A stretch of 64,000 bases of DNA from Rhizophagus irregularis (Eukaryota), in contig NC_089433.1 of the NCBI RefSeq assembly GCF_026210795.1, positions 5,580,001-5,644,000 of the forward strand. Direction: 5' to 3'. The notes under the pieces were generated by a model. It worked only from the letters and a program-made list of their open reading frames with translations, was not told where the DNA came from and did not search any database. This document shows positions 16,736 to 61,439 of the stretch, one piece after another. The stretch's first letter is position 1, and each line of letters begins with the position of its first letter. Position numbers and translations under genes: made by a program.

Positions 16736-16972
16736 TAAATTTTACAAGGTCAATTAGAAAAAGGAAAAGATCAGTTTTGTAAAACAATCTTAAATAAAGA
16801 TAATCTATTTAAGTTTTTATTTTATCTAACTTTATTTGTTATTGATAATCAAAAAGTATTTGTAATTCAAATTACATGTAAAATTTTTTATTTTTTTTCT
16901 CACACTTTCTTCTTTTTCTTGTAAAAGAATTTTAATTTTTTACAATAATTTTTTATATATTTTCTTATAAAT

Positions 16973-20790: not shown

Positions 20791-21040
20791 CGTCCTTAAA
20801 GAAAAAAGTTTTTTTTTTTTTAAAAAAAAAAGCATAATATTAAAAAAAAATAGACCAGATTGGACCAGATTATCTGATCAATCCGGTCAATCCGGTCATC
20901 TATGTAACATCTGATCAATCCGATGTTATCCAATGGATCCATCCAGATTATTCACAATCCGTTCATTCCTAATCTGGATGATCCGTTTTTTGATCGAATC
21001 GGATGATGGATTGAACAGATTTTACCGGAGCACACCTCTA

Positions 21041-26832: not shown

Positions 26833-29800
26833 CACTGGTCGAAATCATTTCTTTCGGCATTAATACCTTTTGTCAAAAGTTCATTATCGTCATCACGTGA
26901 TTTGTCACACATTCGGCTAATCACAAAAATCAGAAAAAGTTTGGCATAAAGATTTTTGGTCGATTTATGGTTGAGTTGTAATATAAAAAAAACCATAAAT
27001 CGACCAATACTTTTTTTTATCGATTTTTTATTAACAATGACAATCGACTTAAAACTTTTTTGACGATTTTTAACCAAATTTTTAATTAATTAATATCAAT
27101 AATATTTGACAATCAATTGTGCAATTCCGCAATTAGTCTGCAAATGTGGAACTGTAGCATTATTATAAACACATTTTACTGACAGTTTCTATCATATTTT
27201 TCAAAAAATGCATTTGAATTGGTAAAAAAATGCATTTTCGCAAATAAAGAAATCCAAATTCGGCCGGATAATTTGACAGATTATCCAATATCCATCAAAT
27301 TTTCTGGCCAAATCGCCTTTTTTTATCTTTTTTATCTTTTTAATTTAATTAATATAAAAATATTAATATTTAATATATATATTGTTTTTAAATTAATTAA
27401 TACATAAAAAAAAACACCAAAAAAAGGCATTTCGGCTGGATAATTTGACGGATTATCCAATATTTGTTGAATTATCCGGTTTATGACTGAATATTAAAAA
27501 AATCAAATCAGCCGGAACATCAATAACCGTCAAATTGACCGGCTGATCCATTTTTTTAAAAAAAATCGTTCTTTTTTAAAAATTATTAATGAAAAATGAT
27601 TTTTTTCTTTTACTTTAATGATAAGAAATAATCGTTTTCGATTAATAAGTTTAAAATTATATATTTTTTTGCAATTCCGCAATTTATCCGCAATTACGGA
27701 TTATTTGCCGCAATTACCTATTTGCAGCACCATCTTTAACGTGAGATTATCCAGATCAAGTTAAAAAAAAAGCATGTTTTTTTAATGTGGCTCCTTCACC
27801 TCTATCTATTTCTTTCTCCCTTTTTTCCTCTCTCTTATTTCGTTATTTCCCCTCCCTTATTTCGTTCTTTTCCTTTCTTTTGCCCTTATTCTTCTATTGG
27901 CGTTGATAGGAAAAAAATTTTTTTATTTGTATTTTTTTATTTTGTAGGTTTCGGCTTTTAGTTCTTGAGCTTTGGATATATGAAGTTTCGAAGTGAAAAC
28001 TTTGAAACTTTTTTTAAAAAAATTGTTGGATATATAGGTGAGTTTTGGAGTGAAAAATTTAAAACTCTAAAAAAAACTATTTTTTGTAATTTTTTCTTTC
28101 TTATATTTTGTAGGTTCTTTCGGTTATAGGGCTTTAGATATATGAGTGAGTTTCGGAGTGAAAACTTTGAAACTTTTTTTAAAAAAAATTATTAAATGTT
28201 TTTAATTTTTTTTTCTTCTATTTTGTAGGTTTCGACTTTCGGTTCTTGGGCTTTGGATATATGGGTAAGTTTCGAAGTGAAACTTCGAAACTTATTTTAA
28301 AAAAAAATTACTTTTTTAATTTTATTTTAATTTTCTTTTTCTATTTATAGGTTTCGACTTTCGGTTGGGCTTTAGATAAATAGGTGAGTTTCGAAGTGAA
28401 AGAATCGAAACTCTTTAAAGAATAATTTTTTTAATTTTTTTTTTTATTTTGTAGGTTTCGACTTTTGGTTCTTGGACTTTAGATATAAGGGTAAGTTTTG
28501 AAGTTAAAACTTCGAAACTTTCTTTTAAAAAGTATTTTTTTAATATTTTTATCTTCAATTTTGTAGATTTTAGCTTTCGATTATTGGACGTTGGATATAT
28601 GGGTAAGTTTCGAAGTAAAACTTCGAAACTTTTTTTTTAAAAAAATATTTTTTTTAATATTTTAAATTTTTTATCTTCAATTTTGTAGATTTCAGCTTTC
28701 GATTATTGGCGTTGAATATATGGGTAAGTTTCGAAGTTAAAACTTTGAAACTTTTTTTTAAAAGTAATTTTTTTTAATTGTTTCTTTTTCTATTTTGTAG
28801 ATTTCTTTCAGTTCTTGGGCGTTGGATATATAGGTGAGTTTTGAAGTGAAACTTCAAAACTTTTTTTTAAAAAAATATTTTTTTTAATATTTTAAATTTT
28901 TTATCTTCAATTTTGTAGATTTCAGCTTTTGATTATTGGGCGTTGGATATATGGGTAAGTTTTGAAGTTAAAACTTCGAAACTTTTTTTTAAAAGTAATT
29001 TTTTTTAATTGTTTCTTTTTCTATTTTGTAGATTTCTTTCAGTTCTTGGGCATTGGATATATAGGTGAGTTTCGAAGTGAAAGAATCGAAACTCTTTAAA
29101 GAATAATTTTTTTAATTTTTTTTTCTATTTTGTAGGTTTCGACTTTCAATTATTGGGCATTGGATATATGGGTAAGTTTTGAAGTGAAACTTCGAAACTT
29201 TCTTTTAAAAAAATATTTTTTTTAATATTTTAAATTTTTTATCTTCAATTTTGTAGATTTTGGCTTTCGATTATTGGGCGTTGGATATATGGATAAGTTT
29301 CGAAGTTAAAACTTTGAAACTTTTTTTTAAAAGTAATTTTTTTTAATTGTTTCTTTTTTCTATTTTGTAGATTTCTTTCGGTTCTTGGGCATTGGATATA
29401 TAGGTGAGTTTCGAAGTGAAAGAATCGAAACTCTTTAAAGAATAATTTTTTTAATTTTTTTTTCTTCTATTTTGTAGGTTTCGGCTTTTGGTTATTGGAC
29501 GTTGAATATATTATATGTAAGTTTCGATCAGAATGAAAGAATCGAAACTTTTAAAAAAAAATATTTTTTAATTGTTTCTTTATTCTATTTTGTAGATTTC
29601 GGCTTTCGGTTCTTGGGCGTTGGATATATAGGATAGGTGAGTTTTGAAGTGAAAACTTCAAAACTTTTTTTAAATAGAATTATTTTTTTTAGTTATTTTT
29701 TAATTTTTTTCTTCTATTTTGTAGGTATCGGTTTTCGGTTCTTGGGCATTAGATATACGGATGAGTTTCGGAGTGAAAACTTCGAAACTTTTTTTTTTAA

Positions 29801-30841
29801 AAAAATATTTTTTTTTTTAATTTATTTTAATTTTTTTTTTCTTTTTTGTAGGTTTTGACTTTCAGTTCTTGGGCTTTGGATATGTGGGTAAGTTTCGAAG
29901 AAACTTTGAAACTTCAAAACTTATTTTAAAAAAAAGATATTTTTTTAATTTTATTTTGATTATTTTTCTATTTTGTAGGTTTCGACTTTCGGTTGGGTTT
30001 TGGATATATAGGTAAGTTTCCACTTCGGATTTTTGGTTGGGTAAGTTTCGAAATATTTCGAAACTTAAATTTTTTTTATTAAAGAATTGGTTTACTAACC
30101 GTTTCTTTATTTTTTTTTGTAGATTTTCCTTTGGACTTCTATTGAATGGGTAGGTTTTGAATCTTCAAAACTTTGACCTTTTATTATTGTAATAATAACG
30201 GTTTACTAACCATTTCTTTATTTTTTTTTTGTAGGTTTCTCTTTCTTCATCTTTTTTGTCAGATAGAGTAAGTGATAGATAATTTTGGATGAGTGGATGA
30301 TGGTGGACGATGGTGGACGATGGATGGTGGATGATGGGTAGTAGACGATGGATGTGGAGGATGGTTGACAATGGTTGACAATGGATGGTGAATGGTAAAT
30401 GGTGAATGGTGGATGGTGGATGGTAGGTGTAAATAGACAGATACTGTAGAATGTATATATTAGATATTTAATATGATAATTTTTAATATGTAATTTTAAT
30501 AAAGCGAAATAATAAAATTTAATCAATTGATTGTTATTACAAAATTAAAAATAAGCTAAATACATAAAATTATTAACAATTAGACAAAATTAGACTTAAT
30601 TTCATCCAACATTCGGCAATTTGAAATTTGGACGAATGTCTAGTAAAAGTTGACGAATAGTTTATTTCCGATTTTTTAATGAATTTTGCCGATTTGTGAT
30701 TGCCAAGTGGCAGGCGAAGTGTGCAAATCGTCCATAATAACTTTGACGATTTTTTTGGCAATGATCAGCTGAATTTAAACCAACTTTCGTCCAACATTCA
30801 TCAATTTGAAATTTGGATGAAATGGACTATTCTGACCAGTG
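26833..30841 (+). mobile_element. Non-autonomous CACTA/CMC-like element (CACTG ends, 3-bp TSD)
   Basis: ata|cactggtcgaaat ... attctgaccagtg|ata. The paralogous kinase near 52080-52098 shows the empty site. Confidence 0.9.
27940..30240 (+). repeat. Micro-exon/intron-like tandem array A (~20 units, ~115-bp period)
   Basis: ttttgtag|GTTTCGACTTTCGGTTCTTGGGCTTTGGATATATGG|gtaagtttcgaagtgaaacttcgaaactt. CT-rich leader at 27790-27900, (tgga/tgg)n tail at 30287-30425, aataaa near 30500. Confidence 0.85.
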
Positions 30842-32316: not shown

Positions 32317-32695
32317 TAAATAACAAAGAAAATTTTGTTTAGCAGAAAAATTTATTGTATAGAATTTTTTTAATTATAAATATTATGTTTGGGGAAAAAA
32401 ACGGATTCGTTTATATTATAATTTATGTAATTGTTAGAAAACTATCACTATAAAGAAACGATTATAATATTTTGATGCTTTGATACTACCGATCAAATAT
32501 GGAAATATTTAGTTTATCACTTAGAAATAGGTGTAAATGTATCAAATTTGGTTGTAACTGCGTGTGATTTAAAACTAAAAAGTAAAGAAGTCATATTTCA
32601 ACTGACCGCAGCATTGATCTTTGCTGCGCAATGAAATAAAATATAAATATACTAATCGTGATACATTATTTTTTTTCTTTTTAGTTTAAAAGAAG

Positions 32696-33613
32696 ATGTC
32701 TTCACTTGGTGTTTGCAATATTAACAATAAATTTTGTGGTTGCCAAACTTATATGGAAAACGATAATAATCCAGGAAAATGTTTTTATTGCAATCATTTT
32801 AACGCGTTTCATACCGGGTTTTCCATTTTGTTTCGAAATTCTTCAACGCCATTTTTGGGAGCTTGCCAAAAAGAGGGAGCTTCATGTGGATGTCAAGCTT
32901 TTTTCGCTGTTCCTAATGACCGATTGAAATGCAAATATTGTGATCATTTTTCTGCACTTCATAAGATGACTTTTCCAAATAGTGTTTCTAGTTTGTCCGA
33001 ATCTATCAACAAAAAGTCTGTGGGCATTATTAGAAGGGAGGGAAATAAAATTTTAACTACAGGTCATCCCAAAAGCCAATCACTTACTCTTAACAATATA
33101 TTATTGTTTTTTAAAGATAGTTGGAAAAATAAATCAGCTCCAAGAAAAAATACTTCGACTTGGAAAAAAATGAAGAAAAGAGGTTTAATTATTGAACGAG
33201 TAACATTTAATAAGGATGATATTAAAAATTTTAATACTAAAATTGTTAGTTTATTTCAAATTGATATTGTTGCGAATAATATCATTATATTAAAAGGTAC
33301 TAAAGGTGAATTTAAATCTTCAATTTGTCAGGTAAAAATTATTTAATATTGGGTTCTAAATTAACAGTTTATTTTTTATATTTTAATTCTTATTTTGTGT
33401 TGTGTTTTAGAATAAAACATTAAAGAATTTGAGATCAAATATATCAAAAAGCAACAGAAAATTGTATCTTGGTAATTACATTTTTAGTTAGCATTTCTTT
33501 TTAATAATGTATTGATATTTATTAATCATGTTGCTTTAACAACAATTTTAGCATTGGTAGATAATTCCAATGACGAGTCTTCTGTGATGAATATCAAAAA
33601 CTTGATTAGTTGA
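32696..33613 (+). CDS. Cys/His-rich tandem zinc-module protein, paralog A (exons 32696-33331, 33411-33471, 33552-33613)
   Basis: Two C-x6-C-x-C-x12-C-x2-C-x-H-x4-H modules. Intron positions and exon 2 (NLRSNISKSNRKLYL) are shared with paralog B. Confidence 0.85.
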
Positions 33614-39985: not shown

Positions 39986-41027
39986 TCAATCAGTGTTTTC
40001 GCTTTTAATTTCAGAATATTTATCTTGATTATTATCCGCTTCTGCTTCACTAGATTTATCTGAGGTCAGAGCTAAAATTGATAAAAGTAAATTATTAAAT
40101 ATGTTATTTAAACAAAAAGCAATATTATTATAATTGTGATTACCAAGGTATAATCTTTTGTTGCTTTTTGACATATTTTCTCTAAAATTCTTTAAAGATT
40201 TTTCCTAAATCACAACATCAAATTACGAATTATAAAAATATTTAAATATATTTTAAGCTAGTAAAAATTTATATAATTACCTGACAGGTAGCAATTTTTA
40301 ATTTACTTGCAGAATCAGCGTTTAATAAAATCCAATTATCTTCATTAACGGAAGGAAAAGAACGGGTAATTAAATCATTAATAGCTTCAGAAGTATTTTC
40401 ATTAAATAATACATTTTCTATAATGAATCCATTATCTCTCATTTCAATCCAAGCTGAAGTATTTTCTCTTGGAGCTGAATTATTTTCCCAACTTCTTTGT
40501 GTAAACAATATTATGTGATTAAGATAAAGTGAAACGTTAGCAGGTCGACCTCTAGAAGCAACTATACTAGGTGAATTGTGATTCTGAAATTTTGACTGAT
40601 TTCTTTTCCTCTTTTTAGTAATCGGCATATGTCTATTTTTAATGGCTTCTTCTCTTAACCTAGAATCTCCAGAATTATTAATACTTGATGTTAATAAGTA
40701 TGATGGCAAATTACTTTCAATATTAATTGAGCCAGGAACGATACTTGGTGAGGTATTCTTGTGAAATGCAGTAAAATGATCACAATATTTGCATTTCAAT
40801 TCGTTATTAGGATTAGCTAAAAAAGCTTGACATCCACAGAAAACTCCATCTTTTTGACAAGCTCCTAATAATGGCGTTGAAGTATTGTGAAGTGCAGGAG
40901 AAAAACCGGTATGAAACGCATTATAATGATGGCAATAATAACATTTCTCTGGATTATTCTCATCTTCTTTATAAGTTTGACAACCACAATATTTATTGTT
41001 AAAATTACAAACACCAAGTAGGAACAT
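39986..41027 (-). CDS. Cys/His-rich tandem zinc-module protein, paralog B (exons 41027-40281, 40204-40144, 40071-39986)
   Basis: Same two Cys/His modules, the SAPR.NTS.W..M...G.IIE.V.FN motif and the same two introns as paralog A. Confidence 0.85.
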
Positions 41028-41854
41028 TTTTCCTTAAACAAAAGAAAAAAAGAAAGAAATTCTTTGTACAATCGTTTGTTAAAGATATATTTATACTTTT
41101 AAGTAATAAATACGCATTCAGCAGATTGCAAAACTGTTAATAATGGTGGCATGGTCCGAAATATGGATTGGCGCAGTGGAAATCTGAATTGCAAATGCAT
41201 ACTGAATTGCCTTAATTGCAAACATTCCTTGTGAAAATGGAAAAACTTGTTTATTTAAAACCATATAAATTAGCTTTCATATGTTTTAGAAAAAGATGGT
41301 ACATTTAAGACAATAATGATGAGGGCAAAAGACTTAGAAAACGTCTGATTAGTGCTTCACTTACTGAATTGACGCGTCTCTTAATCAACTACTAAAAAGC
41401 AATTATGAAGCTAATCTTCTATTGACCTCAAATTAGAAACATTTGGTGATTAGAGCTCTGAACGGGTCAGGTAGGGTCAGGTAATTGACTTAACCCGACC
41501 TGTCTCATTTTTTTCAGATCGGATTAAGTGTCAACCCAAATATAAAAATAACTTGACCTGACCCGATCCAACCTGACCTGATTTTTATTAAAAAAATTTT
41601 TTTTTTTTGACCTTGCTGTTATTATATTTTATGTTGTATTTTATTACTAAATAAAAAAACCATAGAAATCATTTATGATATATAAAATGATATCAATAAC
41701 AATGCTAATTAGTTAAATTTTATACAACTGGAAAAATTTTATTATTAATAACTGTAAATTTTAATTCCCCCCTCACACACATACTACGGCCTGTTCAGCT
41801 TTCTGAGTTATCCCAAGGCCATTTTCTAAAAATTAAAAAGAAAGAAAACGTTAA

Positions 41855-44800
41855 CACAGGTCGAACAGATGTCATTGTCGCAAAATTTGCCTGGAATTTT
41901 TCTGGCAAATTGAGAATTATCCCAGTAAATTAGGGTAAATTGTGTTACAATTTTGGGATAATGTAGGTCTTACAATTTGGCAAATTTTGTCAAAATGGCG
42001 GAATTCCTACAAATGTTCCAATTCAAATGTTGAGAAATTTTTCAGTAAATTATCATTAAATTGTGGGAAATTTTAGGCAAATCTTTAGTAATGATATGCA
42101 AACGAAGTGCAAATTGTGGTGAATTTAGTTAAATTTTTAGTAATTTTATGCAAACGTAATGTAAATTGTGGTGAATTTTAGGCAAATTTTTAGTAATGCT
42201 ATGCAAACGAAGTGCAAATTGTGGTGAATTTTGTTAAATTTTTAGTAATTTTATGTAAACGTAATGCAAATTGTGGTGAATTTAGTTAAATTTTTAGTAA
42301 TTTTATGTAAACGTAATGCAAATTGTGGTAAATTATAGTGAATTTTTAGTAATTTCATGCAAAAGTAATGCAAATTGTGGTAAATTGTAGTGTATTTTTA
42401 GTAATGTTATATAAATTGTTGAAAATTTAGGTGAATTTTTCAGCAATGTTGTGCAAACGTAATACAAATTGTGGTAAATTTTGCATTTTTTCGGTAAATG
42501 TTAGCTAAACTTTTGATAATTTAGTGAAATTTAGGATAATTTCGGACAATTGAGTGAAAATGTTTTACTGATTTTGGACAATTGAGTGTAAACGGTATAA
42601 ATGCAACATTTTCGGAGATAATTTAGTGAAATTTTGGACAATTGAGTGAAATTTAGTAATAATTTTAAACAATTTAGTGTAAACGCCATGACAATTTAAA
42701 ACACTGTTTTAATAATTTCATATAATTTATTATAATTTTATTTATTAATAAATGTACAATTATTATTATTTAACGATAATCTATGGATAATCTGCACCTC
42801 TAATTCATTCATGTATCAAATGTCCAGTGCCAAAGTAGAAGCCGGTGTAAACCTAAAAAAAAAAGAAAAAAACGAAGCGTTAATAAACATTTCGTTGAAA
42901 AAATCAAAATAAAGAAACATTTCGAAGTATATACCTTCGAACTGTTAAATTCCATATGTTCAAGGACCATTGAACCTAAAAAATAAAAAAATGAAACATT
43001 AATATACGTTTCGTTGAAAAAATAAAAAAAATAAAAAAATGAAACATTAATATACGTTTCGTTGAAAAAATCAAAATAAAGAAACATTTCGAAGTATATA
43101 CCTTCGAAATGTTAAATTCCATACGTTCAAGGACCGTTGAACCTAAAAAATAAAAAAATGAAACATTAATATACGTTTCGTTGAAAAAATCAAATTAAAG
43201 AAACATTTCGAAATATATACCTTTCGAAATGTTAAATTCCATATGTACAAAGACCGCTGAACCTAAAAAATAAAAAAAAAATGAAACGTTAATATACGTT
43301 TCGTTAAAAAAAATCAAAATAAAAAAAATATTTCGAAGTATACCTTCAAAATATTGAATTCCGGTTTGTCCAATGAGCCGCTGAACCTAAAAAAATATAA
43401 AAAAAAATGAAACATTAATATACGTTTCGTTGAAAAATAAAAAAAATATTTTGAAGTATACCTTCGAAATGTTTCCCTTTTCCCTTTCGTTTCACCCTTC
43501 CCTTTCATCTTCTCCTTCACCTTTCGTTTTCGTTCTCAACTTTCTCTTTCGTTTTCTCCTTTCCCTTAAAGAAACAAAGAAAAAAGAAAAAAATTTTAAT
43601 AAATATAAACAAAATAACGAAATTTCTCTAATTCCCTTTACCTTATTACCTTCCACCCAAAGCCTGGTTCGTGAATTCGTTCCGGCGTTCCTACAATAAA
43701 AGAAAAAAAAATAACGTTTAAAACGTTACTAAAAAAAGCACTAAACTCCCCTCTACCCTATTACCTTTCACACAAACAAAGTCCGGTTCGTAATTTCGTC
43801 CGGAGTTCCTACAAAAAGAAGAAAGAAATGTTAGAAACGTTTCCTTACAAAAAATAATTAAAAAAAAAATTTTTTTTTTTAAAGTTTTGAAGCGAAACGC
43901 TTCGAAACTTACCACATTTTACCGATTCGGAATATTGGAGCACGGACCTATAAAAAAAAAAGAAAAAGAAATGTTAAAACGTTTCTAAAAAATTAAAAAA
44001 GAAAGAACTCTTCAAACTTTTTCTCCCAAATACCTTCAAGTCCGGTTCGTAAAAATTCATCTGGCAATTCCTACAAAAAAAACAAAAAATAAAAAAAAGA
44101 AACGTTAAGAACGTTTCTAAAATGCAAAAAAAATTGAATTATCTCTCTTTCTTTCTTTAATTATCCAAAGACCTTTCGTCCGGCGTTCCTATAAAAGAAA
44201 AAAGAAACGTTAGAACGTTTCTTAGTAAAAAATAAAATAAAATCAAGTTTCGCAGCGAGACGCTGCGAAACTTACCATATTTTATCGATTTAGAATATTG
44301 GAGCACAGAACCTACAAAAAAAGAACATTAGAAAGTTCCTTTAAAAATCAAAAAAAATAAAAATAAAGTTTCGTAACGAAATATTCGTTACGAAACTTAC
44401 CATTTCGCCGTTTCGGATCCTTGGAATACCAAAACCTACAAAAAAGAATAAAGAACGTTAGTATTTAGTAACGTTCCTTTTAAAAATAAAAAAAAAGAAT
44501 CGAAGTTTCAAAACGAAACTTTGAAACCTAACCGAAATCCAAGATCGGAAGGAATCCAGAGTGTATCTACAAAAAAAGAAGAAACATTAGCTAACGTTTC
44601 TTAAAAAAATTTAATAAAATTAAGTTTCGCAACGCAACGTTGCAAAACTTACCGGTTCGTTTCGATTCCATCATCCAAACGTCTGGCGTTTCTACATAAA
44701 GAAAAAGGAAACTTAGAAACGTTTCTTTACAAAAATTAAAAAAAAAAAATTAAAAAGTTTCAAAGCGAAACGCTTCAAAACTTACCATTTTCGTTTCCTC

Positions 44801-46789
44801 GTTTCCTAAGTCAAAAATACTGAAAGACTTAAAAAAAAAATAAAGGATCATTAAAAAAAATGATCCTTATAAAAGTAAAAAAAAAAAATTTATTTTAAAG
44901 TTTCGAAGCGAAACGCTTCAAAACTTACCATAATTTCAGTTCGTTTCCCAAAGTAAAAACATCGAAAATCCTACAAAAAAGAAAGAAAGGAAACGTTAGA
45001 AACGTTTTCTTGCAACAAAGATTAAAAAAAAAAAAAAATTAAAAAAGTTTCGAAGCGTTTCGCTTCGAAACTTACCATAGTTTTTCTGAAAGACGGTTCC
45101 GGGAAAGAGAAAGGGAAAGGGGGAAGGAGTGGGGATCGAAAAGAGAAGGGAAAGGGCGGAGGGGAGAAGGGGAGAAAAGAGGGAAGGTGAAGGTGAGAGA
45201 AAGAGGGAAGGAGAAAAAAGAGGGAAGGGGAAGGTGAGAGAAAGTAGAAAGGTGAAGGTGAAAGAAAGAGGGAACGGGAAGGTGAGAGAAAGAGGAAAGG
45301 GGAAGGTGAAAGAAAGAGGGAAGGGGAAGGTGAGAGAAAGAGGGGAAGGAGAAGGGCGAAAGAAAAGAGAGGTAAAGGTGAGAAAAAAAAAATTAAGCTT
45401 TTGCTAAAAAAGCTTAATTTTTTTTTCGTTATACTGCAGCCGAAGCTGCGGTAATTATTAAGTAATATCACGTGACGCACGTGATATATAATTTTATATA
45501 AATAGGGGCTTTCCCCCGCCCCAGAAATTTTTTTTTTTTATTTTAATAATTTTAAATAGATGTATATATATGCTTATATATACATATATATATATCTATT
45601 AACTAATACTTTACGAAAAGCCCTCCTCTGTAAACAGGTAGAGGCCATAAAGTACCTATAGGGGGAGAGCCATTGCTGCTCCCTCCGCCTGTTTATAGTG
45701 ACAAAAAGAGGGAGTCTTCAGTAGTAAGGTTTAGTACTAAATTAAACATCACAACACATCGTGTTGATACATTGTTTATATTAACAATGTGATTTAATGT
45801 TAAATAATTCATTTAGAATATAAATATTATAAATTTAATAATGTTCGTAATTTACAAATAAATAAAAATAAAAATTAACAATTTTAATGTAATTAAGTGT
45901 AATGCTACGTTATCCAGTGTAATTGTAGTATTTTTTTTGTGTTTTTTAGCGCAATTCCGTGTTTTTTAGTGCAATTCCGCATTTTTTAGTGCAATTTCAC
46001 ATTTTCCAGTATAACGCAAAATTTTCTAAAAAATATAATAATTGTGGTACTTTTTAGTGTAATGCTACATTGTCTAGTGTAATTGTGGTATTTTTTAGTG
46101 CAATGCCGCATAATTTAGTATAGTGCTACATTTTTTAGTATAATTTAATGTAATGTGGAATTTTCCAAAAAATGTGATAATTGTAATGCTTTTTAGTGTA
46201 ATTTGGTGAAATGCTACATTTTCCAGTGTAATGCCATATTATTGAGCATTTTCAAAAAAAAATGTAACATTTTAATATTCTGACAAAAGTGAAACATTTG
46301 ACCAAAAAAACATAAAATTTGCTGAAAATATGCAACATTTGACAGAAAATATAGAATTTTCATAAAAAATATACCATTTGCCAGAAAATTGGAATATTTG
46401 ACAAAATTTGATTTTAATTGACAATGTTACAACAATTTTATGAAATGTTGTTACAATGATGTCACATTGGAGATAAAATGCAGCATTTTCATAAAAATGC
46501 ACCATTTGCAAGAAAATTGGAACATTTGACAGAAAAAAAGCAAAATTTGATTTTAATGACAATGTTATAACAATGTCATAACAATGTTACGAAATGTTAC
46601 ATTTGAGGTGTAATGTAGCATTTTCCCAAAATTTCATAAGATTTGCTAAATCGGACAATGTTGTAACAATGCTATTCCAAAAAATTGCTCAGCGTAATGT
46701 AGCATTTTCCACAATTTCCCACCATTTTCCAGGAAAATGGGGAATTTGCATTTTTTGAATTTTGGACAATGGTGCCCCTTCGACCTGTG
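41855..46789 (-). mobile_element. Non-autonomous CACTA/CMC-like element (CACAG ends, TAA TSD) nested in hAT 3
   Basis: taa|cacaggtcgaacagatgtcattgtc ... gacaatggtgccccttcgacctgtg|taa. Degenerate subterminal repeats at 41880-42700 and 45890-46760. Confidence 0.88.
42845..45390 (-). repeat. Micro-exon/intron-like array C (~18 units, variable exons)
   Basis: On +: cttac[34-42 nt]ctacaaaa recurs with gttag (branch point, rc ctaac). CT-rich leader on the minus strand at 45100-45390. Confidence 0.85.
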
Positions 46790-46932
46790 TAATAAATGTT
46801 CCTTAAAAAAAATTATCAAATCTCTCTTTCTAATACACATACCGTGGCCTGTTCATTATCTAAAGGCCGTTCCTAAAAAAAAATTATCAAACCCCCTTCT
46901 CTAATGCACATACTGTCATCTAAAGGCCGTTC

Positions 46933-47180
46933 CTATACTTCATCTGATAACAAATCTAATGATAGTGACGATAGCGAACTGAAAGTGATAAAGAAAAAGG
47001 GGAGATAAAGGCACGCTATCCTATCATATGAATCACGATGAAGAACACATAATATCCAACAAAGTGACGAATAACAATTCAAATTATCAAACCGCTGACA
47101 TCCCACATGAAGAATCTATAGGCAAAACTGGTCGTTTATTTGTTAGGAATTTACCTTACATTTGTACAGAATACGATTTA
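46933..47180 (+). pseudogene. MRD1: Captured fragment of an MRD1/RBM19-like RNA-binding gene (linker plus start of an RRM)
   Basis: HEESIGKTGRLFVRNLPYICTEYDL matches from memory the Mrd1/RBM19 RRM3 start (GRLFVRNLPY..TEEDL). It ends abruptly at the array repeat. Confidence 0.7.
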
Positions 47181-47885
47181 CTAAAAAAAAAAATAAAGAA
47201 AATGTTAATAACGTTCAGTTTATTAACATTTCTAAACGCAAAAATCCCCTATTACAACTTACCTAAGGTCTTCAAGGCCGTTCTATACAAATAAATAAAA
47301 GGAAACATTAAGAATGTTCAGTTTATTTACATTTCTTTAAATAATAACACAAAAATCCCTTTATTACAACTTACCCAAGCTCCAAAGCTGTTCCCTATAA
47401 AAATAAAACAAAAAAGAAACGTTAATAATGTTTATTAACATTTCTTTAAGTAAATGGTGTAAAACTTCCTCCATTACAACTTACCCAAGGTATAACTTGC
47501 CATTAAAAAAAAATTAGCAGTTAATCATACGACTGATACTGAAACTGCAGTTATTACCGAAACTGATCAGAGTCTGATTTTTTTTGGTCGGGTCAGATCA
47601 GGTACCCGACTCGACCTGAATATTTTTGTATAATTTCAAAGTGGCTTATGAGAATTTTAATAATAATAACGAAGTTTTTTTGCAAGTTGCAACTGATAAA
47701 AATAAAGATTATATATTTTTATTTAATTACTTAAAAGAGCTGTTTATTTATATAAACGGTAATGTGCTAGGTTTCAAAATTAACAATACAGTTATTTATA
47801 AAATCTGCCGGGATATGTAGTAATTACAATATTAATGCAATATGACAATTTATTAGTAAGTTTTGGCGTACTGCGTACATATATA

Positions 47886-50800
47886 TTATTCTACTCTATC
47901 ATTTTTTATCCAGTTTTTTAGACACATACATGCTTGAATAGTTTCTCGTCCTAAACTAGAACGTCTCTTTGTAATTAGGTCGGTTCCTCCAGAAAATATT
48001 CTTTCTACAGGTACACTCGTACCTAAAAAGTTCAAAAATTATATTAAATAAAATAAAAAAATTATAAGTTATAAAATCAAACAAATTCACACCTGGAATC
48101 GCTAAAAAATCTCTTGCCATATTCGCAAGATGTGGATAAGTTGCTTCATGTGTCTATAATGCAAATATAATTAGATGTCAGTATAATATTTATTGGAATT
48201 ATTAGAATTTTTTTATAACTTACTTTCCACCACTGTAGTGGATCAGTTTTAAATGCCACTGCAGGTTTTCGGAGATATTCTTCCAGCTCATCTTCATCCC
48301 TATCATTGTTATCCAATTCAAATATACAGAAAAAATCATTCCTGACAGATTCAACTAAACTATCGGTATTTTGAAAAGTATTTTTGTAATTATTGTTGTA
48401 TGTTTCTTTAATAATTTTTAAAGAAGCATCAATATATTCTTGTTCCCATTTTTGTTGGGTATAATATTTTAATTTTATTCGCGGATCAAGGACTAAAAAA
48501 TTACAGATGCATAAAATTTAAATAATTTAAATTTTATACAATATTATAAAGATAGTAAAATACAAAAATTTATAAATTACTCATTGCTATTGGATAAATG
48601 TATGAATCATTTGTTCTGGCATAATATTCCTTGAGTTTTTCGTACCCCATTCTTATTGCACTACGAACTTCCAGAATTGGAAGGTCGTCTAAAGCGGGGA
48701 CAAATCACGTGATTCGGTGTAATTTTAATTAGATTAATTTTTTTTAAAGAAAGATTAATAGAAACTTTAAAATCATAACATAAGCGTATTTTTATCTGCT
48801 TTGCAAGTTTACTTAAGGAAAAAAAGTGGATTATGAATATTGTTTTTGACTTTACATATGAATGAACGAAACTTTGCCGATCATATTCAAAAATGGATAA
48901 CGAAATTGAAAAAGTCAAATAAATCAAAAACAGCATTCAAAACCCTACTCTGCACTCTAAGTAAACTTGCAGAGCAGGCAAAATGCATTTAGGATGTGTG
49001 TTTAGAATGGTTGAATATATGGTAAAAAGTTTTATTTTATGAAAACAATTTTTTTTGAAGTCACGTGATTTGCTCCTGCTTTAGACGACCTCAGAATTGG
49101 GCAGTAATTTGTATTTTGTTCATCTAAAAGATTTTCTATATGTTCTAATAAGGCATTATACACAGGAATTGATGCCGAAAGCGTAATGAATTTTGATTGA
49201 GACATATATTCAGTAGCATCTTGGAAAATCTAAATTATAAAATTATACTTAATTTAATTGAATAAGTGATGATAAATTTAATAATTAATAAATATTACTT
49301 TAAGTACTCGGCATAATTCTTCTATAATTTTCCATTCATCCGATAAGATGGAAAAATCATTTAGCTCTCGGTCAATAGCTGCAATATTATCAAGAGGCTG
49401 TATAAATGTAATACTAGATAAATAAATTAATACATTATATCTAGTATATACTGTATTTATATATGTTTATTTAAATAGTTTTACCACTTGAAGTTCAAGA
49501 GCGCATTTTAACATTAGGTACGTTGAATTCCATCTCATCTTAACATCTAAAATAAGGTTTAATTCTTTAATATTTTGACTATTGCATTGGCAAAAAAATC
49601 TTTCACGGCGCTATGGTGAAACTCGGATTTTTACAATAAGCTTTCTTAGCTAAATAAAAATTAATAATAAATATTTTTATTTTAGAATAATATTAAAAAA
49701 TATTAGTGTTTTATTCTTACCTTAGGTATTATTTTATTTGTAAAAAGATTTGTATTATTCAAAATATCATCTAAAATTATATCTTCATCTTGTGGTTCTC
49801 CCGCTTTGATATATTTTAGTATCTCTTGAACTGCAAGGTTCATCATATGAGCGATACATCTGACATGATTTCATGGCGATGGAATTCAATGTGATTTTTG
49901 ATGCACATCTTTTCAAATTCCTTAAGAAAGGTATTGTTATTAGCGGCATTGTCCGTTGTTATTCCAAGGGTCTAAATTAAGTGTATTATAGTATTATCAT
50001 TAGTATTTTTATTTTGTCTTTATAATACATTATATATATTAATATATACTTAACCTTTGTGAATATTTTTTTCTTTTCAAGGCATTTTAAAAATGCATTT
50101 GCCAGATTTTCGCCTGAATGAGAACCCTCTAAATAAATAAAATCAAGAAGAATATCTCTAAGTTTCCAGTTAGCATCAATATAATGGCATGTTATGCCGA
50201 GAAATCCAAGAATATTAGGAGAGGTCCAAGCATCCAACGCAAAACTTATTTTTCCTGAAACGTTCTTCAATTTTAAGAGGTAAGTAAATTAATTTAATTA
50301 TATAATAATAATAAATTAAAATTTATAAATTCTTTACTAACCTGTAATAAATTTTGAATTTTTGTTTGATAATTTTTAAAAATTTTTAAAATATCATTTT
50401 TAACCGTATCTGCAGTCGGAATACGTGTTAATGGATTACAAATATTAATCAAATAACCAAACTCGGGAGATTCAACAGTGGTAAATGGCAGATCATCTGC
50501 AGTGATCCATATAGCAAGTTTTTTCCCGAAAAATCTCATTTGTAAATATCTATAAATAGGTTTAATTAATGAATAAATTATTACTTTAAAAATAAAATAA
50601 ATAAATTATACTTACTAATCGTTGATTATCTTCACGTAGAAAATTATTCATCAATTCTACTTGCTTCATAGTAGGAGGATCAATTTTGTTTGGATGTAAC
50701 TTAAGATGGCGATTTAAATTACCTGTTGAGCTCCCTTTGCCCATATTATATTTACCGCCACTGTTAAATAATATATTATATAAATTATAAAGGAATTTTT

Positions 50801-51315
50801 TAACTGTATTGAAATATAAAAATTCTTTACCTGCAATATCAGCATTTTGCCCATATTACGCCCTTTTCATCTTTAAACTTATCAAAATGATTTTACACAT
50901 TACTTCCTTTTTTATTTTCGTCCAATGTGCTTAAAACTGATTCATCAGCTTTATTTTCGTCTTGAATATTTTGTTCTTCTTCATTTCTACGCAGTTCTTC
51001 ATTTATACGCAGTTCTTCTTCATTTATATGTGGTTCTTCTTCATTTATATGTGGTTCTTCTTCATTTATATGTGGTTCTTCTTCATTTATACGTAATTCT
51101 TCTTCATTTATACATGATTCTTCTTCATTTATATGTGGTACTTCATTTATATCTTTTTCACTTAATATTTCTTCTTGAAGTAATATCTCATCTTCTTGAA
51201 ATAACACTTCATCCTCTTCTTGATCAAATAACATTTTTTCTTTACAAGAATGCTTTGATTTATGAATATTATTATTTTTAAACTTTTTATTGTTTTTACG
51301 TTTTTCTTTAAACAT
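47886..51315 (-). pseudogene. Intron-rich hAT transposase, disrupted
   Basis: BED finger (SSTGNLNRHL), SFALDAWTS, TTDNAANN, HVRCIAHMMNL, VLDPR, YPHLANMARDFLAIP|GTSVPVERIFS. More than 10 introns, stops, a nested MITE and a 21-bp repeat encoding (INEEEPH)n. Confidence 0.92.
48681..49091. mobile_element. MITE with 9-bp TSD (Mutator- or Merlin-like)
   Basis: TSD cagaattgg (48672-80, 49092-100). TIR aggtcgtctaaagc...caaatcacgtga. Removal restores the transposase frame NYCPILEVRS. Confidence 0.88.
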
Positions 51316-51790
51316 TTTATATTTTATGAAGTAAAAAAAGAAAAATTTTTTTTACAAAAAAAAGGATTTTCATAGATTTATAACAAACAATTGATAATCA
51401 ATTTACTAATTTGGTTCAATTATTCTGATCAACAGGTTTATTTATTTAATAAATATTTTACATTTAAACGTAATAATAATTTAATATATGTGACCTGAAT
51501 CTGACCCAGATAGACTCGGTTAGATTAAAAAATTTACCTGATCCGATATCAGGTTAATAATTTGTCAACCTGACCTGAAAATTTCGGGTCAACCTGACGA
51601 GTCACCTGGGTTGACCTGACCTGTTCGGAGCTCTATTGGTGATCGTGTAAAAGTGATGACCATAGTAAATTTCGCTAACTTTGTAAAGTTAGAATATTTT
51701 GTGTAACATTACATGGTATGAATATAGTTGGCGATGCTTGCAATTCTTTATGATTCATTGTCAGTTGAATTCTATTAAAATTCATTTAAA

Positions 51791-54610
51791 ATGCAGTGGA
51801 TTGAAGATTCAATTAATAAAAAATTTCTCAAATTATACGAATTTGAAGAATTTAAAAATGTTAATAAAATTTATGATGGTCAATGTTTAGAAGTATACAG
51901 CGCGGTCTACAAAGTTATCATGTAGCGATAAAATCACTACTTTATAATAATAATGAATGCATGAATGAGATTGTTCGTGAGGTTGGTATTGTATGTTTTA
52001 CTGTATATGACAATTAATTTAAAATATTTTTCAGCATTAATTTAGATTCAACTTTATCACCAGTTGAATTACTGCTCTATCTCCAAAATTTATGGAGTTA
52101 CTAGAAAAGGTTTGTTAAATTAAAATTAAAAAAATGAAAAGTTTATTATATTAACATTTAAATTTTAAGGGAAAGATAAATCGTTTTCCTTAGTATTGGA
52201 ATTTGCAGATAATGGAGAAATGATTGATTATTTTCGAAATAGGTGTCAAACTATTTATATGGACGATTTTATTAATATAATTGTTCAAATTGCGAGATTA
52301 TTATTAATTTTGCACGAAGATGATATTTTTGGCATTAATATCATATAACAATTTCTCATAATAATTTGCAAATCACTTTTATTCTATTATTAAATTATTC
52401 TGATTTTAGAGTTCCAATATTTTACTTGATAAAAAGAGAAGAGTTAAACTGTCAAGTTTGGGGCTATCAAAAAGAATTATAAAAGGTTTTCAAAGCAAAA
52501 ATCAAGATATTATCGATTTTAAATCTATTTTTGAATATATAAAGTTTAAGCATGGAAGATACAACAAATTATTTAAAGATAATGAATTTACTTTATTTTA
52601 ATATTTATAATAATTGTATTAATTATGGCAACATTATTGTGACTATACTTGCCACCCATATTAAATGGGATGGGAGAATCCCCTATCCCATCCCATCCCA
52701 TATCCCATCCCTTTTGCCAAAATCCCCTCCTATTTGCCAAAATCCCATTCCAATCCCAAATCCCAATCCCACCCATATCCCATATCCCATATCCCATCCC
52801 TTATCCCAAATAATCTCATTGGTCAATTATCACGTGACGTTACACAAATTTCCAAAAAAGGAAATTTTGCTTCCCGCAAAAATTGAAAGATTTTGGTTTC
52901 ACAAGTATTCCAAAAAAGGAAATTTCTACGCCGATCATATAATTCTGGCCAGCATTGCATCCATTACCAGAATATGAGCAAAATTAAGATCCCGAACAGA
53001 TTTACGAAGTTTATATTTTAACTCCGGCCGGAATTACAAATTATAAAGGTTTAAATCCTTATCCTACAAACCCAATTTTTAAGAGATTTACTGATCAGAT
53101 TTTAATGAAATTTATATCTTTGGATTCGTCTTGATGCAAGGAATTAAATGGTAGTGAAATCATATTTCTAAAATTAATATTGACTGATTTATTATAAAAA
53201 ATGTATTTTTATACTATATATTATTTGAAAGTAACATGTTTATAGCAGTTAGTATTCAGTAATATATTGATTATTTTATTTGAATTAATAATTTTGATGA
53301 TATCTGTTGATATTGTTTTTTTAGATTAACAGTAAATTAATTCCTGGTTTGTAAATATTATTTTATGAAAAAATGTATTTGTAACGCCTGATTACGTATC
53401 TTTATTTGCAACATCCTTTTTTTATTTTTTTTAATAATAAATTTAATATGTGTTTCACAAATAAATTTTTTATATGCAAAATTTAATTTGGAAAACTTTT
53501 ACTTAATGTACTTAAGACAGTTTCATAGATAAAATTTAAGTTATAAGCAGTTTCTTGAAATTTTTTAAAAAATTCTTTTATCTTAGTTACACGACTGATC
53601 TTTTGTTTTTGTTTACATTACGCCTGATTTTAAATTTTAATTGGATAAAATTGGGGGTTGTTACAAATAAGACGCATAACAGGCTGTTACAATTAGATTT
53701 ATCCTTATTTTATTAAATATTTATGCAATAATAATAATATCTATCAAATTATATATATTAGAAATAAATAATCAAACTTTTTTTGATGAATTAATAGATA
53801 GGTTTAAGTTAATTCAAAGTTAAATTGTAATAAAAAATATAAAATAATAAATTGAATAAATATATTTTAAAAACTTTTTATATTAAAAGTAACCAATTAT
53901 TGCTTGCTTTATACATGTTATTTAATAATATATATTATAAAATACATTTTTTATAATAACTTAGTCAATATTAATGTTGGAAATATAATTTCACTGCCAT
54001 TAAATTCCTTGCATCGAGACAAATCCAATGATATAAATTTCATTAAAATCTGATCGGTAAATTTCTTAAAAATTGGGGTATGTAGGATAAGGATTTAAAC
54101 TAAATTCTGACCTGAATTAACATTAGACTTCGAAAACTAAAATATTACGGCCGGAATTATGTGATCGGCATAGAAATTTCCTTTTTTGGAATACTTGTGA
54201 AACCAAATCCGCCCATTTTTTGCGGGAGGCAAAATTTCCTTTTTTTGGAAGTTTGTGTAACGTCACGTGATAATTGGCCAATGGTAGAAATGTTACACAA
54301 GTATTTTGGGATTTGGGATGGGATGGGATTTGGGATTGGGATTTGGGATGGGATGGGATATGGGATGGGAGGGGAGGGGATGGGAGGGGATTTTAAATGG
54401 GCGGCAAGTATAATTGTGACAGATTGTATAAACTCTAGAGTCTAGAAGTTTAGAAGAATGTATTAATAAGTTGGAATCTATAGGTCGCTCTAATAAAGGT
54501 AAATGTAATTTATGTTTATTCATTATTGTAAGTACAAAAGCTAATTAATTTTTTTGATAGGACGGGAAGTCAAAATTGTCGTATTTAAAAACGAAAAAAA
54601 AACATTTAGT
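51791..54610 (+). pseudogene. Degenerate TKL-type kinase-like gene, copy 2
   Basis: MQWIEDSINKKFLKLYEFEEFKN..; 1-bp deletion near 51913 relative to copy 1; same exon structure and 3' flank as copy 1. Confidence 0.8.
52644..54412. mobile_element. hAT-type foldback MITE with ~600-bp inverted arms
   Basis: 8-bp TSD attgtgac (52636-43, 54413-20). TIR tatacttgcc(a/g)cccat. (atccc)n and (gggat)n subterminal tracts. Empty site in kinase copy 1 near 31393-31405. Confidence 0.93.
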
Positions 54611-59859: not shown

Positions 59860-61259
59860 TTAAGAAATTTGAAAAAACTCTTTAAATTCAGGATCTTGCT
59901 CTAATTTTTGCATGTGTTCAATAATTAAGCTTGTATAAGCTTGTATTCCATCATCATATTTAGTTCCAAGTAGGATAACTATTCCATCCAAATTTCTTCC
60001 TCTTCTCAAGCTAAATCTTAATGGAGTTCCATAACCAAAATCTAAATCATATAATGAAGATTTAGACCAATTGGTCAAGACAAGATCTTTACCACAATAG
60101 TAATTACAATTTAATTTAATTTCACTTTTATTTGGTTGTTGCTCAATCCAATCAATTGAGGATCTTATTTTTGAGTCATTTACTTTATCAATTGCTTTTC
60201 GTATTTGAAGTGCAAGATTTGGTTGAGATCCATTTATCAACTCAGAAACAAGCATTTTTGGAACCGTATTTCTAGGAAATATCAGGAATATAAATATCAA
60301 AATTTATCAGCGATTTAAGATAAGACATATCAGTTAACTTACAAGATACAATTACCAAAATAATTTGGTGGAAAGAATGGTTTGAGTCTTTTTCTTCCAT
60401 CACAAGGAAATGCACAAATAACTTCTGCATCTAAAGGAATTCCACGTGCTCTAGTTACCAATCTCCAAAGGTGAGCTACAAGTGCATCATTAGCTGAAAC
60501 CAAATTATGTTCACCAGAATAAACATTGCATAATTTTTTTAAATTATCTCTATTAATATGAAATAATTTTGTTATCATCGGTGGCATCGGTGGCATCGCT
60601 TGAGAAGCCTCAGTCGGAAGTTTAAACAGCTTGAATTCAGGATGCTCATGAGTTGGTGGGTTACCACTAGCCTTTAGTAAAGAACGGTCATGTACAGGAG
60701 GAATGATTGGTTCTTGACGAGCCTTACGTCCCCAATTATCTAAAAAACAAAATAATGAGATACCATCTGCAATTGTATGATGCATGACCGTTCCTAAAAC
60801 AACAGATCCATCAGCTAATGTGGTATGTTGTACCATAAGTAATGGCACATCCAAAGGAAGTGATATTAATCCATGAGTTACAGGTAAATCAGGTACAAGA
60901 TGATCTGGAATTGAAGAAGGCTGCCAATTTTTTTCTTCAAGTTGTTGAATTGTAATATCTGGGCTTTCGGCTATGATAAATGGAATACCTTGATCACAAC
61001 ATGCAATGCTTAATTTACCATCAATTTCTTTTTTTAAACGACCAGCCAATGGATAATAATCAGATAAAATATCTCCCAATGAATCACGTAGTTTACTAGG
61101 ATCCATAAAATCATTTTTGTTATCAACATTCTTGTAAAAATGATGAGCAAACATGTAAACCATTGGAAGTACTAAATCATGATTAGATAGAATTATTGGT
61201 GAATGTTGTGTTGGTTGAGTTGGCCTGACATTATAAGTTTCTTTAATACTAACAGTCAT
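59860..61259 (-). CDS. BAHD/transferase-family CoA-dependent acyltransferase (exons 61259-60343, 60271-59860)
   Basis: YYPLAGRL, HxxxDG (HTIADG), YFGNC and DFGYG motifs. One GT-AG intron keeps the frame. Confidence 0.93.
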
Positions 61260-61439
61260 TTTGAACAAAAATTTGCGGTAAAAAGAAACTATAATTTAGA
61301 ATAATTTTGTGAATTTATAAAGTTTACGCAGATTTTTCCCAAGCCAAATTAGGTATCGCTATCCACTGATTTTACCCAACTTGGATTTTCCCGAAATTAT
61401 TATTATGATCGGACATTTATCAATCTATAGTATAGTGGT

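What the first reader, a model, noticed from the sequence alone, without database searches (positions are those of the whole stretch)
43880..45080. Intron 5' hairpin shows compensatory base changes while exons are mostly unrelated (repeat-spacer logic)
Seen on +: aagtttcgaagcg-ttt-cgcttcgaaactt (~45045), aagtttcgcagcg-aga-cgctgcgaaactt (~44245), aagtttcgtaacgaa-ata-ttcgttacgaaactt (~44367) and aagtttcgcaacg-caa-cgttgcaaaactt (~44622). Both arms change together (gaag/cttc, gcag/ctgc, gtaa/ttac, gcaa/ttgc). The exons between them are 42, 42, 39, 34, 35 and 36 nt and mostly dissimilar. A second quasi-palindrome (aaacgtttctaacgttt) contains the branch point. Inference: the structured intron is the selected unit, as in snoRNA-host or mirtron-like transcripts. 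The stem would mask donor positions +3 to +6.
Basis: partly seen in the sequence, partly recalled or inferred. Interest (0 to 1): 0.8.

Follow-up and report, generated by a model that had tools for sequence, protein, structure and literature searches.

The report
Transposon-borne micro-exon arrays in mycorrhizal fungi
In the mycorrhizal fungus Rhizophagus irregularis, a 4.9-kb stretch with the ends of a DNA transposon carries a run of tiny exons between palindrome-bearing introns, one of which is spliced in sister copies; it likely makes no protein, and the dense introns may help the transposon's RNA pass as a host gene.

Summary
The hairpins are real and covary, but this is neither a repeat-spacer system nor a snoRNA or mirtron host. 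The window is Rhizophagus irregularis. The array reads on the minus strand as about 18 exons. It lies inside a 4,935-bp element with inverted ends (CACAGGTCGAA) and a 3-bp target duplication, itself nested in a hAT transposon. Other arrays of this kind lie elsewhere in the window and in 44 soil-metagenome loci.

Exons are paralogues, duplicated together with their introns. Intron I4, which has a 14-bp donor stem, is spliced in poly(A) RNA (10 reads, mostly from sister copies; none in two contig sets), so the stem does not block splicing.

Covariation is Watson-Crick only. G·U is not preferred over A·C (25 vs 25), and four loop pairs are exact inversions. This points to DNA template switching rather than proven selection on RNA structure.

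Best reading: non-coding, intron-dense transposon cargo whose selected property is likely splicing itself. The anatomy is well supported; the function is inferred (about 30%). My searches found no description of it.

The parts
41855..46789 (.). Non-autonomous TIR element (4,935 bp) that carries the whole array; CAC termini, 3-bp target duplication
   Evidence: TIRs match 11/11 and 22/30; TSD TAA/TAA; longest stop-free frame 171 codons, over the pyrimidine-rich first exon
41855..41884 (+). Left terminal inverted repeat (CACAGGTCGAA...)
46760..46789 (-). Right terminal inverted repeat
41852..41854 (+). Target-site duplication TAA (second copy 46790-46792); the insertion splits the branch-point dyad of an intron of an outer array
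   Evidence: (flanks)
42058..42700 (.). Left subterminal AT-rich tandem repeats (52-bp unit)
45870..46720 (.). Right subterminal AT-rich repeats (19-20-bp units)
45076..45420 (-). Predicted first exon E1, pyrimidine-rich (24-bp repeats); its start is a guess, downstream of a TATA-like motif near 45495
   Evidence: sequence; not tested with reads
44971..45075 (-). Intron I1 (105 nt): 13-bp donor hairpin, branch-point dyad, U tract
44929..44970 (-). Exon E2 (42 nt), paralogue of E3
44828..44928 (-). Intron I2 (101 nt), donor hairpin with its loop inverted relative to I1
44786..44827 (-). Exon E3 (42 nt)
44692..44785 (-). Intron I3 (94 nt), donor hairpin with two G·U pairs
44653..44691 (-). Exon E4 (39 nt); 37/39 identical in L037
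   Evidence: spliced joint
44567..44652 (-). Intron I4 (86 nt), 14-bp donor hairpin; spliced in RNA reads
   Evidence: joint 44566-44653, skips 86, ends CT..AC; 9 reads in X24, 1 in X23, 0 in contigs X1 and X15
44533..44566 (-). Exon E5 (34 nt)
44436..44532 (-). Intron I5 (97 nt), donor GTTAGG, degenerate hairpin
44401..44435 (-). Exon E6 (35 nt), family E6/E7/E10
44312..44400 (-). Intron I6 (89 nt), 15-bp donor hairpin
44276..44311 (-). Exon E7 (36 nt), 83% identical to E10
44189..44275 (-). Intron I7 (87 nt), 14-bp donor hairpin
43913..44188 (-). E8 (16 nt), I8, E9 (37 nt), I9, E10 (35 nt); I8 and I9 lack the donor hairpin and their donors are hand-called
43809..43912 (-). Intron I10 (104 nt), donor hairpin with one A·C mismatch
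43462..43808 (-). E11 (44 nt), I11, E12 (41 nt), I12 and purine-rich E13 (103 nt), all predicted
42853..43461 (-). 3' block of five introns and four 41-43-nt exons in which the donor sits in the loop of a TTCGAAG...CTTCGAA palindrome, not in its arm (predicted)
42735..42852 (-). Predicted last exon with AATAAA near 42740
   Evidence: sequence; not tested with reads
41451..51635 (-). Host hAT transposon (10,185 bp; TIR TAGAGCTC; 8-bp TSD TTGGTGAT; transposase-like gene about 47900-51330) into which the element inserted
   Evidence: weak Pfam Dimer_Tnp_hAT match, below cutoff
46790..47510 (-). Outer micro-exon array of the hAT element (continues 41800-41851); branch-point dyads but no donor hairpin

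Best explanation
The array is a run of micro-exons and palindrome-bearing GT-AG introns inside a 4.9-kb element with transposon ends, one intron is spliced in RNA from sister copies, and the transcript is likely non-coding cargo that grew by tandem duplication of exon-plus-intron units. Shown: inverted ends, target duplication, nesting, exon paralogy, covarying stems, and splicing of I4. Inferred step 1: the compensatory changes are likely written at the DNA level by replication template switching, which copies one arm onto the other and inverts loops, so covariation alone does not prove selection on RNA structure. Inferred step 2: what the active parent elements likely conserve is splicing competence (GTAAGT donor, YTAAY branch point, long U tract, AG) while exon sequence drifts. 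Inferred step 3, about 30% on its own: dense, well-signalled introns would make transposon transcripts look like host mRNA and so lower their routing into siRNA and CpG-methylation silencing. The hairpins would at most tune splicing. Copies such as this one are now nearly silent and decaying.
For: Element ends and TSDs. A sister element at 26833-30841 is absent from a paralogous gene at 51784-52643. The same TIR type lies beside arrays in 4 of 44 metagenome loci.

Splicing: one search shows the I4 joint in 9 + 1 reads and 0 in two contig sets. Nine X24 reads leave E5 directly into an E6/E7-like exon (compared by eye).

Paralogy.

Non-coding: the 1,134-nt predicted product has 8, 12 and 16 stops in its three frames. 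Its longest ATG frame (115 aa) is borderline against shuffles (P 0.054 and 0.124), and paralogues E7/E10 and E11/E12 enter it in different phases. One-base insertions occur in E4 among sister copies (table 4).

DNA-level signature: G·U vs A·C is 14 vs 11 in donor stems and 11 vs 14 in branch dyads. Among 70 distinct inner sequences there are 4 exact reverse-complement pairs, against 1 reversed-only pair. This is the pattern described in PMC8794818 (passages).

Splice-signal coupling: 103 of 114 dyads found without asking for AG end in YAG, against 34 of 108 controls. U fraction is 0.77 vs 0.53 in coding introns.

Precedent linking splicing to transposon silencing in a fungus: PMC5851062 (passages).
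Against: No test here addresses silencing, methylation or small RNA.

Most laid RNA reads come from sister copies (99+% alike: 7 of 125 and 1 of 134). Many are unspliced (12 and 14 reads run from an E4-like exon into intron), which may be retention or DNA carry-over. Only one joint passed the tool's threshold, marked 'between: not known'.

Donor GT is no better kept than its neighbours: 33 of 43 unselected hairpins keep GT. L019 holds acceptor-only repeats. Both fit neutral decay.

Within this locus the changes favour G·U (6 vs 1, P 0.125; 5 vs 1).

Exon lengths show a mild 3n excess (91 of 212, non-independent), and some arrays translate as short repeats.

No autonomous partner was found.
Confidence: 0.5

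Rival explanations
1. Neutral passenger. A captured intron-exon unit was amplified by slippage inside transposons, template switching keeps the palindromes alive, and occasional splicing is a by-product.
For: No G·U preference; GT lost in 10 of 43 hairpins; acceptor-only repeats in L019; very low expression.
Against: Splice signals stay stronger than in coding introns across exon families that have lost most similarity (median 0.43). AG is coupled to the dyad in 109 of 114 cases. Arrays of different subtypes occur in CAC-type and hAT elements.
Confidence: 0.2
2. The hairpins would slow donor and branch-point recognition and stall spliceosomes, feeding the RNA into an RdRP/Dicer pathway as in Cryptococcus SCANR. 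The array would then be a brake on the element, not a disguise.
For: Predicted stems cover donor +3 to +6 and the branch A. Many unspliced reads. One array runs antisense into a hAT transposase 3' end. 41% of R. irregularis small-RNA loci are unannotated (10.1101/2021.03.30.436303, passages).
Against: I4 is spliced despite its 14-bp stem. Splice signals are strong, not weak. The 15/20-kb and 47-kb arrays lack the donor hairpin.
Confidence: 0.12
3. One reading: the structured intron is itself the product (a tailed mirtron, agotron or stable intronic RNA), and exons are only carriers.
For: Real covarying stem at the intron 5' end. Introns are 74-105 nt and outlast exons. RNA read depth peaks over the hairpins.
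Against: Stems are 13-15 bp, too short for Dicer (recalled). No C/D boxes and no end pairing. Rfam 0. No G·U preference. The depth peak is mirrored in the contig sets, so it reflects copy sharing. In the 3' block the palindrome straddles the exon-intron border and cannot survive in the lariat.
Confidence: 0.08
4. A micro-exon gene for a short repeat peptide (one repeat per exon), now partly pseudogenised.
For: 115-aa ATG frame across E4-E13 (P about 0.05). 91 of 212 exons are 3n. The 15-kb and 28-kb arrays translate as phase-1 repeats rich in F, G, D and L.
Against: Paralogous exons are read in different phases. About a third of 212 exons have a stop in each frame, near the shuffle level. Frameshifting insertions among sister copies. 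A second exon set gave 44/31/38 by length mod 3, P 0.33.
Confidence: 0.08
5. CRISPR-like memory: exons are captured foreign spacers between intron repeats.
For: Uniform exon size (median 35 nt, IQR 30-42, n = 137) between conserved repeats.
Against: Exons are paralogues and are inherited with their introns. No match in phage genomes, and no exact match of E5 in prokaryote genomes; both are weak tests.
Confidence: 0.02

Closest known systems
Non-autonomous CMC (CACTA/Mirage/Chapaev) DNA transposons
   Same: Short TIRs beginning CAC, 3-bp TSD (CMC range 2-4 bp per 10.64898/2026.08.26.747230, passages), subterminal repeats and internal cargo (the last two recalled). CMC elements are reported as recently active in R. 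irregularis.
   Different: Termini are CACAG/CACTG-GTC, not CACTA. No transposase is present to fix the family, and some Transib elements also make 3-bp TSDs. The cargo is a tandem intron array, not a recognisable host gene fragment, and similar arrays ride in hAT elements too.
Introners / introner-like elements
   Same: Many related spliceosomal introns, transposon-linked, with secondary structure (structure recalled for fungal ILEs).
   Different: Here exon and intron duplicate together in tandem inside a larger element; introns are not inserted singly into unrelated genes. The introner survey 10.1101/2024.06.04.597373 has 0 main-text mentions of Rhizophagus or Glomer-.
snoRNA host genes and 3'-tailed mirtrons (recalled)
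   Same: Non-coding short exons, conserved introns, and a hairpin at the intron 5' end.
   Different: No C/D boxes, no Rfam match, stems of 13-15 bp, no G·U preference, and a transposon context.
Cryptococcus SCANR pathway (PMC5851062, passages)
   Same: Links splicing of transposon transcripts to siRNA silencing in a fungus.
   Different: There, poor splicing triggers silencing. Here the signals are unusually strong, and whether such a pathway exists in Glomeromycota was not tested.
Schistosome micro-exon genes (recalled)
   Same: Runs of very short exons.
   Different: Those exons are symmetric and coding, with a signal peptide. Here phases are mixed and stops frequent.

Membership tests
CMC/CACTA non-autonomous transposon | Terminal inverted repeats beginning CAC | tested here: met
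   11/11 terminal match
CMC/CACTA non-autonomous transposon | 2-4-bp target-site duplication | tested here: met
   TAA/TAA here and ATA/ATA for the sister element; range
CMC/CACTA non-autonomous transposon | Strict CACTA/CACTG terminus of EnSpm (recalled) | tested here: inconclusive
   CACAG here, CACTG in the sister element
CMC/CACTA non-autonomous transposon | Subterminal repeats shared by both ends (recalled) | tested here: inconclusive
   Both ends have AT-rich repeats, but only one 28-bp inverted match joins them
CMC/CACTA non-autonomous transposon | Autonomous partner with a CMC transposase and the same ends | not testable with these tools
   No genome held; no transposase-sized frame in the element or in the four TIR-bearing loci
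Spliceosomal introns | GT donor, branch point, pyrimidine tract and AG | tested here: met
   11 of 11 GT-AG and 9 of 11 YTAAY (hand-called); 103 of 114 dyads end in YAG
Spliceosomal introns | Removed from RNA but not from DNA | tested here: met
snoRNA host gene | C/D or H/ACA snoRNA in the introns | tested here: not met
   0 of 11 with box C or D, ACA in 2 of 11; Rfam 0
Mirtron | Intron (or trimmed intron) folds into a Dicer-length stem | tested here: not met
   Stems 13-15 bp; intron ends do not pair
Mirtron / agotron | Discrete small RNA loaded on Argonaute | not testable with these tools
   No small-RNA run was listed
Introner | The intron alone is the mobile unit, inserted at unrelated exonic sites | tested here: not met
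   Flanking exons are paralogous and co-duplicated
CRISPR-like array | Unique spacers acquired from foreign DNA | tested here: not met
   Paralogous, inherited exons; no foreign match
RNA structure under selection | Covariation beyond chance | tested here: met
   (relatedness of copies not corrected)
RNA structure under selection | G·U tolerated more than A·C on the transcribed strand | tested here: not met
   14 vs 11 and 11 vs 14; small numbers, and decaying copies would hide the signal
Coding micro-exon gene | Frame-preserving exons and one open frame | tested here: inconclusive
   Mixed phases; longest frame P 0.054; mild 3n excess family-wide

The most novel reading that the evidence does not exclude
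DNA transposons of several unrelated superfamilies in arbuscular mycorrhizal fungi share a 'splicing passport': non-coding arrays of micro-exons and self-repairing palindromic introns that mark transposon RNA and chromatin as host-like and so escape RNAi and CpG methylation. These arrays could make up a sizeable part of the fungi's unclassified repeats and orphan gene models.
Probability: 0.2. Interest if true: 0.8.

Novelty: new variant of a known kind. Interest (0 to 1): 0.55.

Why it matters
Arrays of this kind cover about 9.9 of the 64 kb of this window (16%, my hand-drawn spans). A third of the R. irregularis genome was reported as unclassified repeat, and 41% of its small-RNA loci as unannotated (10.1101/2021.03.30.436303, passages). 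A recognisable class of intron-array cargo would explain part of that dark matter and warn against multi-exon 'orphan' gene models built on it.

It also gives a testable natural system for two open questions. One is whether introns act as a self/non-self mark against transposon silencing. The other is how far template switching alone can mimic RNA covariation.

Tried and rejected
No whole genome is held, so there was no genome-wide alignment or copy count. Rfam at gathering thresholds: 0. No RNA holder listed; this is no evidence either way. Hairpin pattern in viral contigs: 0. Exact look-up of the transferase ORF: not in the collection. Protein search with the unspliced E1-I1 frame: 0 of 4,894 candidates. 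Phage blastn of 43880-45080: none. Exact E5 in prokaryote genomes: none. Earlier findings: none in 3 look-ups.

Long-range pairing of pyrimidine-rich E1 with purine-rich E13: -86 kcal/mol against shuffles at -77 ± 4.5 (minimum -90), so mostly composition.

Rejected: snoRNA, mirtron, introner, CRISPR-like and coding readings (see membership tests). Looser TIR-like hits in L037 and L051 were rejected as unlike the aligned ends. 43 of the 88 metagenome loci were dropped by eye as prokaryote-like chance matches (no U tract or acceptor), and L065 was left out of counts as overlapping L064 and L066. The 'opposite strands' joint was not interpreted, because the palindrome can cause it.
Full report
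ORGANISM AND SETTING. No genome is held for this window. An ORF 1.7 kb from the array is 99% identical to a Rhizophagus irregularis protein, and the window is AT-rich and full of transposon fragments. Read on the minus strand, 42735-45420 is a chain of about 18 predicted exons and 17 GT-AG introns.

THE OBSERVATION. In 7 of 7 GTAAGT-type introns the first 40 nt fold more stably than all of their 200 shuffles. Folding reaches -10 kcal/mol or lower in 7 of 11 array introns and in 0 of 15 coding introns that I called by hand in the window. In ten aligned hairpins 99% of cells pair, three pairs change on both sides, and 0/500 shuffles reach the covariation score (relatedness is not corrected).

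A metagenome scan gave 92 matches held as 88 loci. I kept 44 by eye as fungal arrays, dropped 43 as prokaryote-like, and left out L065 as an overlap. Several kept loci resample the same organism. The scan fixed only the outer stem. The free inner positions pair Watson-Crick in 62/79, 65/76, 56/70 and 41/68 hairpins, against shuffle means of 32, 58, 31 and 26. Sister copies show the same in the read tables: 44633 C>T and 44639 G>A have near-equal depth (3128 and 3023 of 8815 in X15), as do 44634 G>A and 44638 C>T (5031 and 5439). These depths are unphased.

EXONS ARE NOT SPACERS. Median exon identity is 0.43, but seven pairs reach 0.61-0.83 in three families: E6/E7/E10, E9/E11/E12 (with E8) and E2/E3. 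Locus L037 shares E4 at 37/39 together with its intron and then goes straight to an E11-like exon, so whole units are gained or lost. The 16 exons parsed from the 28-kb array average 75% identity. Phage blastn and an exact E5 scan of prokaryote genomes found nothing, but both are weak tests and mycoviruses were not covered.

THE ARRAY IS TRANSPOSON CARGO. It lies inside 41855-46789, which is bounded by inverted repeats starting CACAGGTCGAA and by a TAA duplication. Removing the element restores the branch-point dyad of an outer intron. That outer array lies in a hAT element, 41451-51635, with a perfect 8-bp duplication. A sister element at 26833-30841 has the same end type, an ATA duplication and an empty paralogous site. 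Four of the 44 loci show such ends; most contigs are too short to reach an end. CAC ends with a 3-bp duplication fit CMC elements, though some Transib elements also give 3 bp (10.64898/2026.08.26.747230, passages). With no transposase, I call it CMC-like, not a member.

RNA. Reads were laid only on 44180-44725, so I1-I3 and I8-I17 are untested. Two poly(A) runs with the same species label gave 125 and 134 laid reads out of 11,053,536 records each. Only 7 and 1 were 99+% alike, so this copy is nearly silent and most signal comes from sister copies. One splice-type joint was listed: 44566 to 44653, skipping 86 bases with CT..AC ends, which is exactly I4. It appears in 9 reads (7 starts) of X24 and 1 of X23, and in neither contig set; the tool marks 'between: not known'. 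Nine more X24 reads leave E5 straight into a sequence that by eye resembles E6/E7. Against this, 12 and 14 reads run from an E4-like exon into intron, and no joint was listed for I5, I6 or I7. Retention and DNA carry-over cannot be told apart. A 14-bp donor stem therefore does not prevent splicing.

IS THE RNA STRUCTURE SELECTED? Not shown. CpG decay can give G·U (tolerated in RNA) or A·C. The counts are 14 vs 11 in donor stems and 11 vs 14 in branch dyads. Within the window alone the donor count is 6 vs 1 (P 0.125). Four pairs of hairpins among 70 are exact reverse complements, meaning inverted loops, against one reversed-only pair. Multiple compensations and loop inversions are the marks of template switching described in PMC8794818 (passages), which also notes that the mechanism maintains functional hairpins; the two readings are not exclusive. 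In the 3' block the same palindrome holds the donor in its loop, and other arrays lack it, so masking +3 to +6 is not the shared feature. The branch dyad, U tract and AG are: 103 of 114 dyads found without asking for AG end in YAG, against 34 of 108 controls. GT is kept in only 33 of 43 unselected hairpins, no better than its neighbours, so present copies are decaying.

CODING? The predicted 1,134-nt product has stops in all frames. Its 115-aa frame is borderline (P 0.054 and 0.124) and reads paralogous exons in different phases. Family-wide, 65-75 of 212 exons have a stop per frame, against about 79 ± 7 in shuffles, with a mild 3n excess of 91 of 212 and fewer stops (54) in one 3'-anchored frame (40 of the 44 loci plus the window arrays). 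A coding origin for some arrays is not excluded.

MECHANISM. Shown: transposon ends, tandem paralogy, covarying palindromes, and splicing of I4 in the family. Inferred: DNA-level compensation; selection for splicing competence in parent elements; and, least secure (about 30%), that dense introns let transposon RNA pass as host mRNA and lower silencing. In Cryptococcus, introns are needed for expression and poorly spliced transposon RNA is sent to siRNA (PMC5851062, passages). Rivals are neutral amplification (0.2), spliceosome stalling (0.12), intron-derived RNA (0.08), peptide coding (0.08) and spacer memory (0.02).

WHAT IS KNOWN. Searches aimed at this feature (listings and abstract starts) showed no description. 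I read term-matched passages, not whole texts, of PMC9757828, PMC11952901, PMC10234402, PMC13465315, 10.1101/2021.03.30.436303 ('intron' occurs 0 times), 10.1101/2024.06.04.597373 (0 hits) and PMC5751038. None of the passages describes such arrays. I did not see any supplements; the curated repeat libraries of these papers may hold the elements as consensus sequences, and subscription journals are not covered. Features of mirtrons, agotrons, snoRNA hosts, ILEs and schistosome micro-exon genes are recalled.

VERDICT. A real feature: a new variant of non-autonomous DNA-transposon cargo, apparently undescribed, widespread, and with an open function. Interest 0.55.

Noticed in passing
window 26833-30841: A second CAC-terminus element (TIR CACTGGTC, TSD ATA, 4,009 bp) holds a plus-strand array of about 20 units with the same donor hairpin. 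Its flanks match a paralogous gene at 51784-52643 that lacks it (empty site).
   Followed up: yes
window 14870-16730 and 19100-20800: Two related arrays face each other across a hAT-like transposase gene (about 16970-19014): one upstream on the sense strand, one antisense into its 3' end. They have branch-point dyads but no donor hairpin, and 42-nt exons that translate as phase-1 repeats.
   Followed up: partly
window 61870-62960, TIR-like end at 63399: A further plus-strand array with donor hairpins and a CACCGGTC end; no matching left end was found in the window.
   Followed up: partly
window 41451-51635: A complete hAT element with a perfect 8-bp TSD and a transposase gene with about ten introns; the frame appears interrupted.
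   Followed up: partly
L064 711-2189 (-), arrays at about 3300-7800: Arrays beside a TET/JBP oxygenase gene (PF12851; 57% to the closest R. irregularis protein, so likely another species or a distant paralogue). Each array block ends in a conserved GC-containing hairpin that may be a Helitron-like end.
   Followed up: partly
L019 and L044: Arrays reduced to exon + U tract + AG repeats of about 45 nt with no donors (tandem acceptors); seen in L019, and suggested for L044 by its repeat ORFs only.
   Followed up: no
window 40269-41033 (-) and 32690-33346 (+): Paralogous Cys/His-rich genes with no Pfam match; the 17 homologues found are from Rhizophagus, Glomus and unnamed metagenome records.
   Followed up: partly
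window 45435-45490: Upstream of E1: paired CACGTG palindromes and a small GC hairpin; L065 has a similar motif before its array, so it may be a shared promoter element.
   Followed up: no
window 59860-61295 (-): BAHD-like transferase gene (PF02458) with one intron, divergent from the 62-kb array.
   Followed up: no
window 43691-45075: CpG is enriched in the array (observed/expected 2.6 in introns, 1.8 in exons, 1.0 for the window); both palindromes are centred on CpG.
   Followed up: partly
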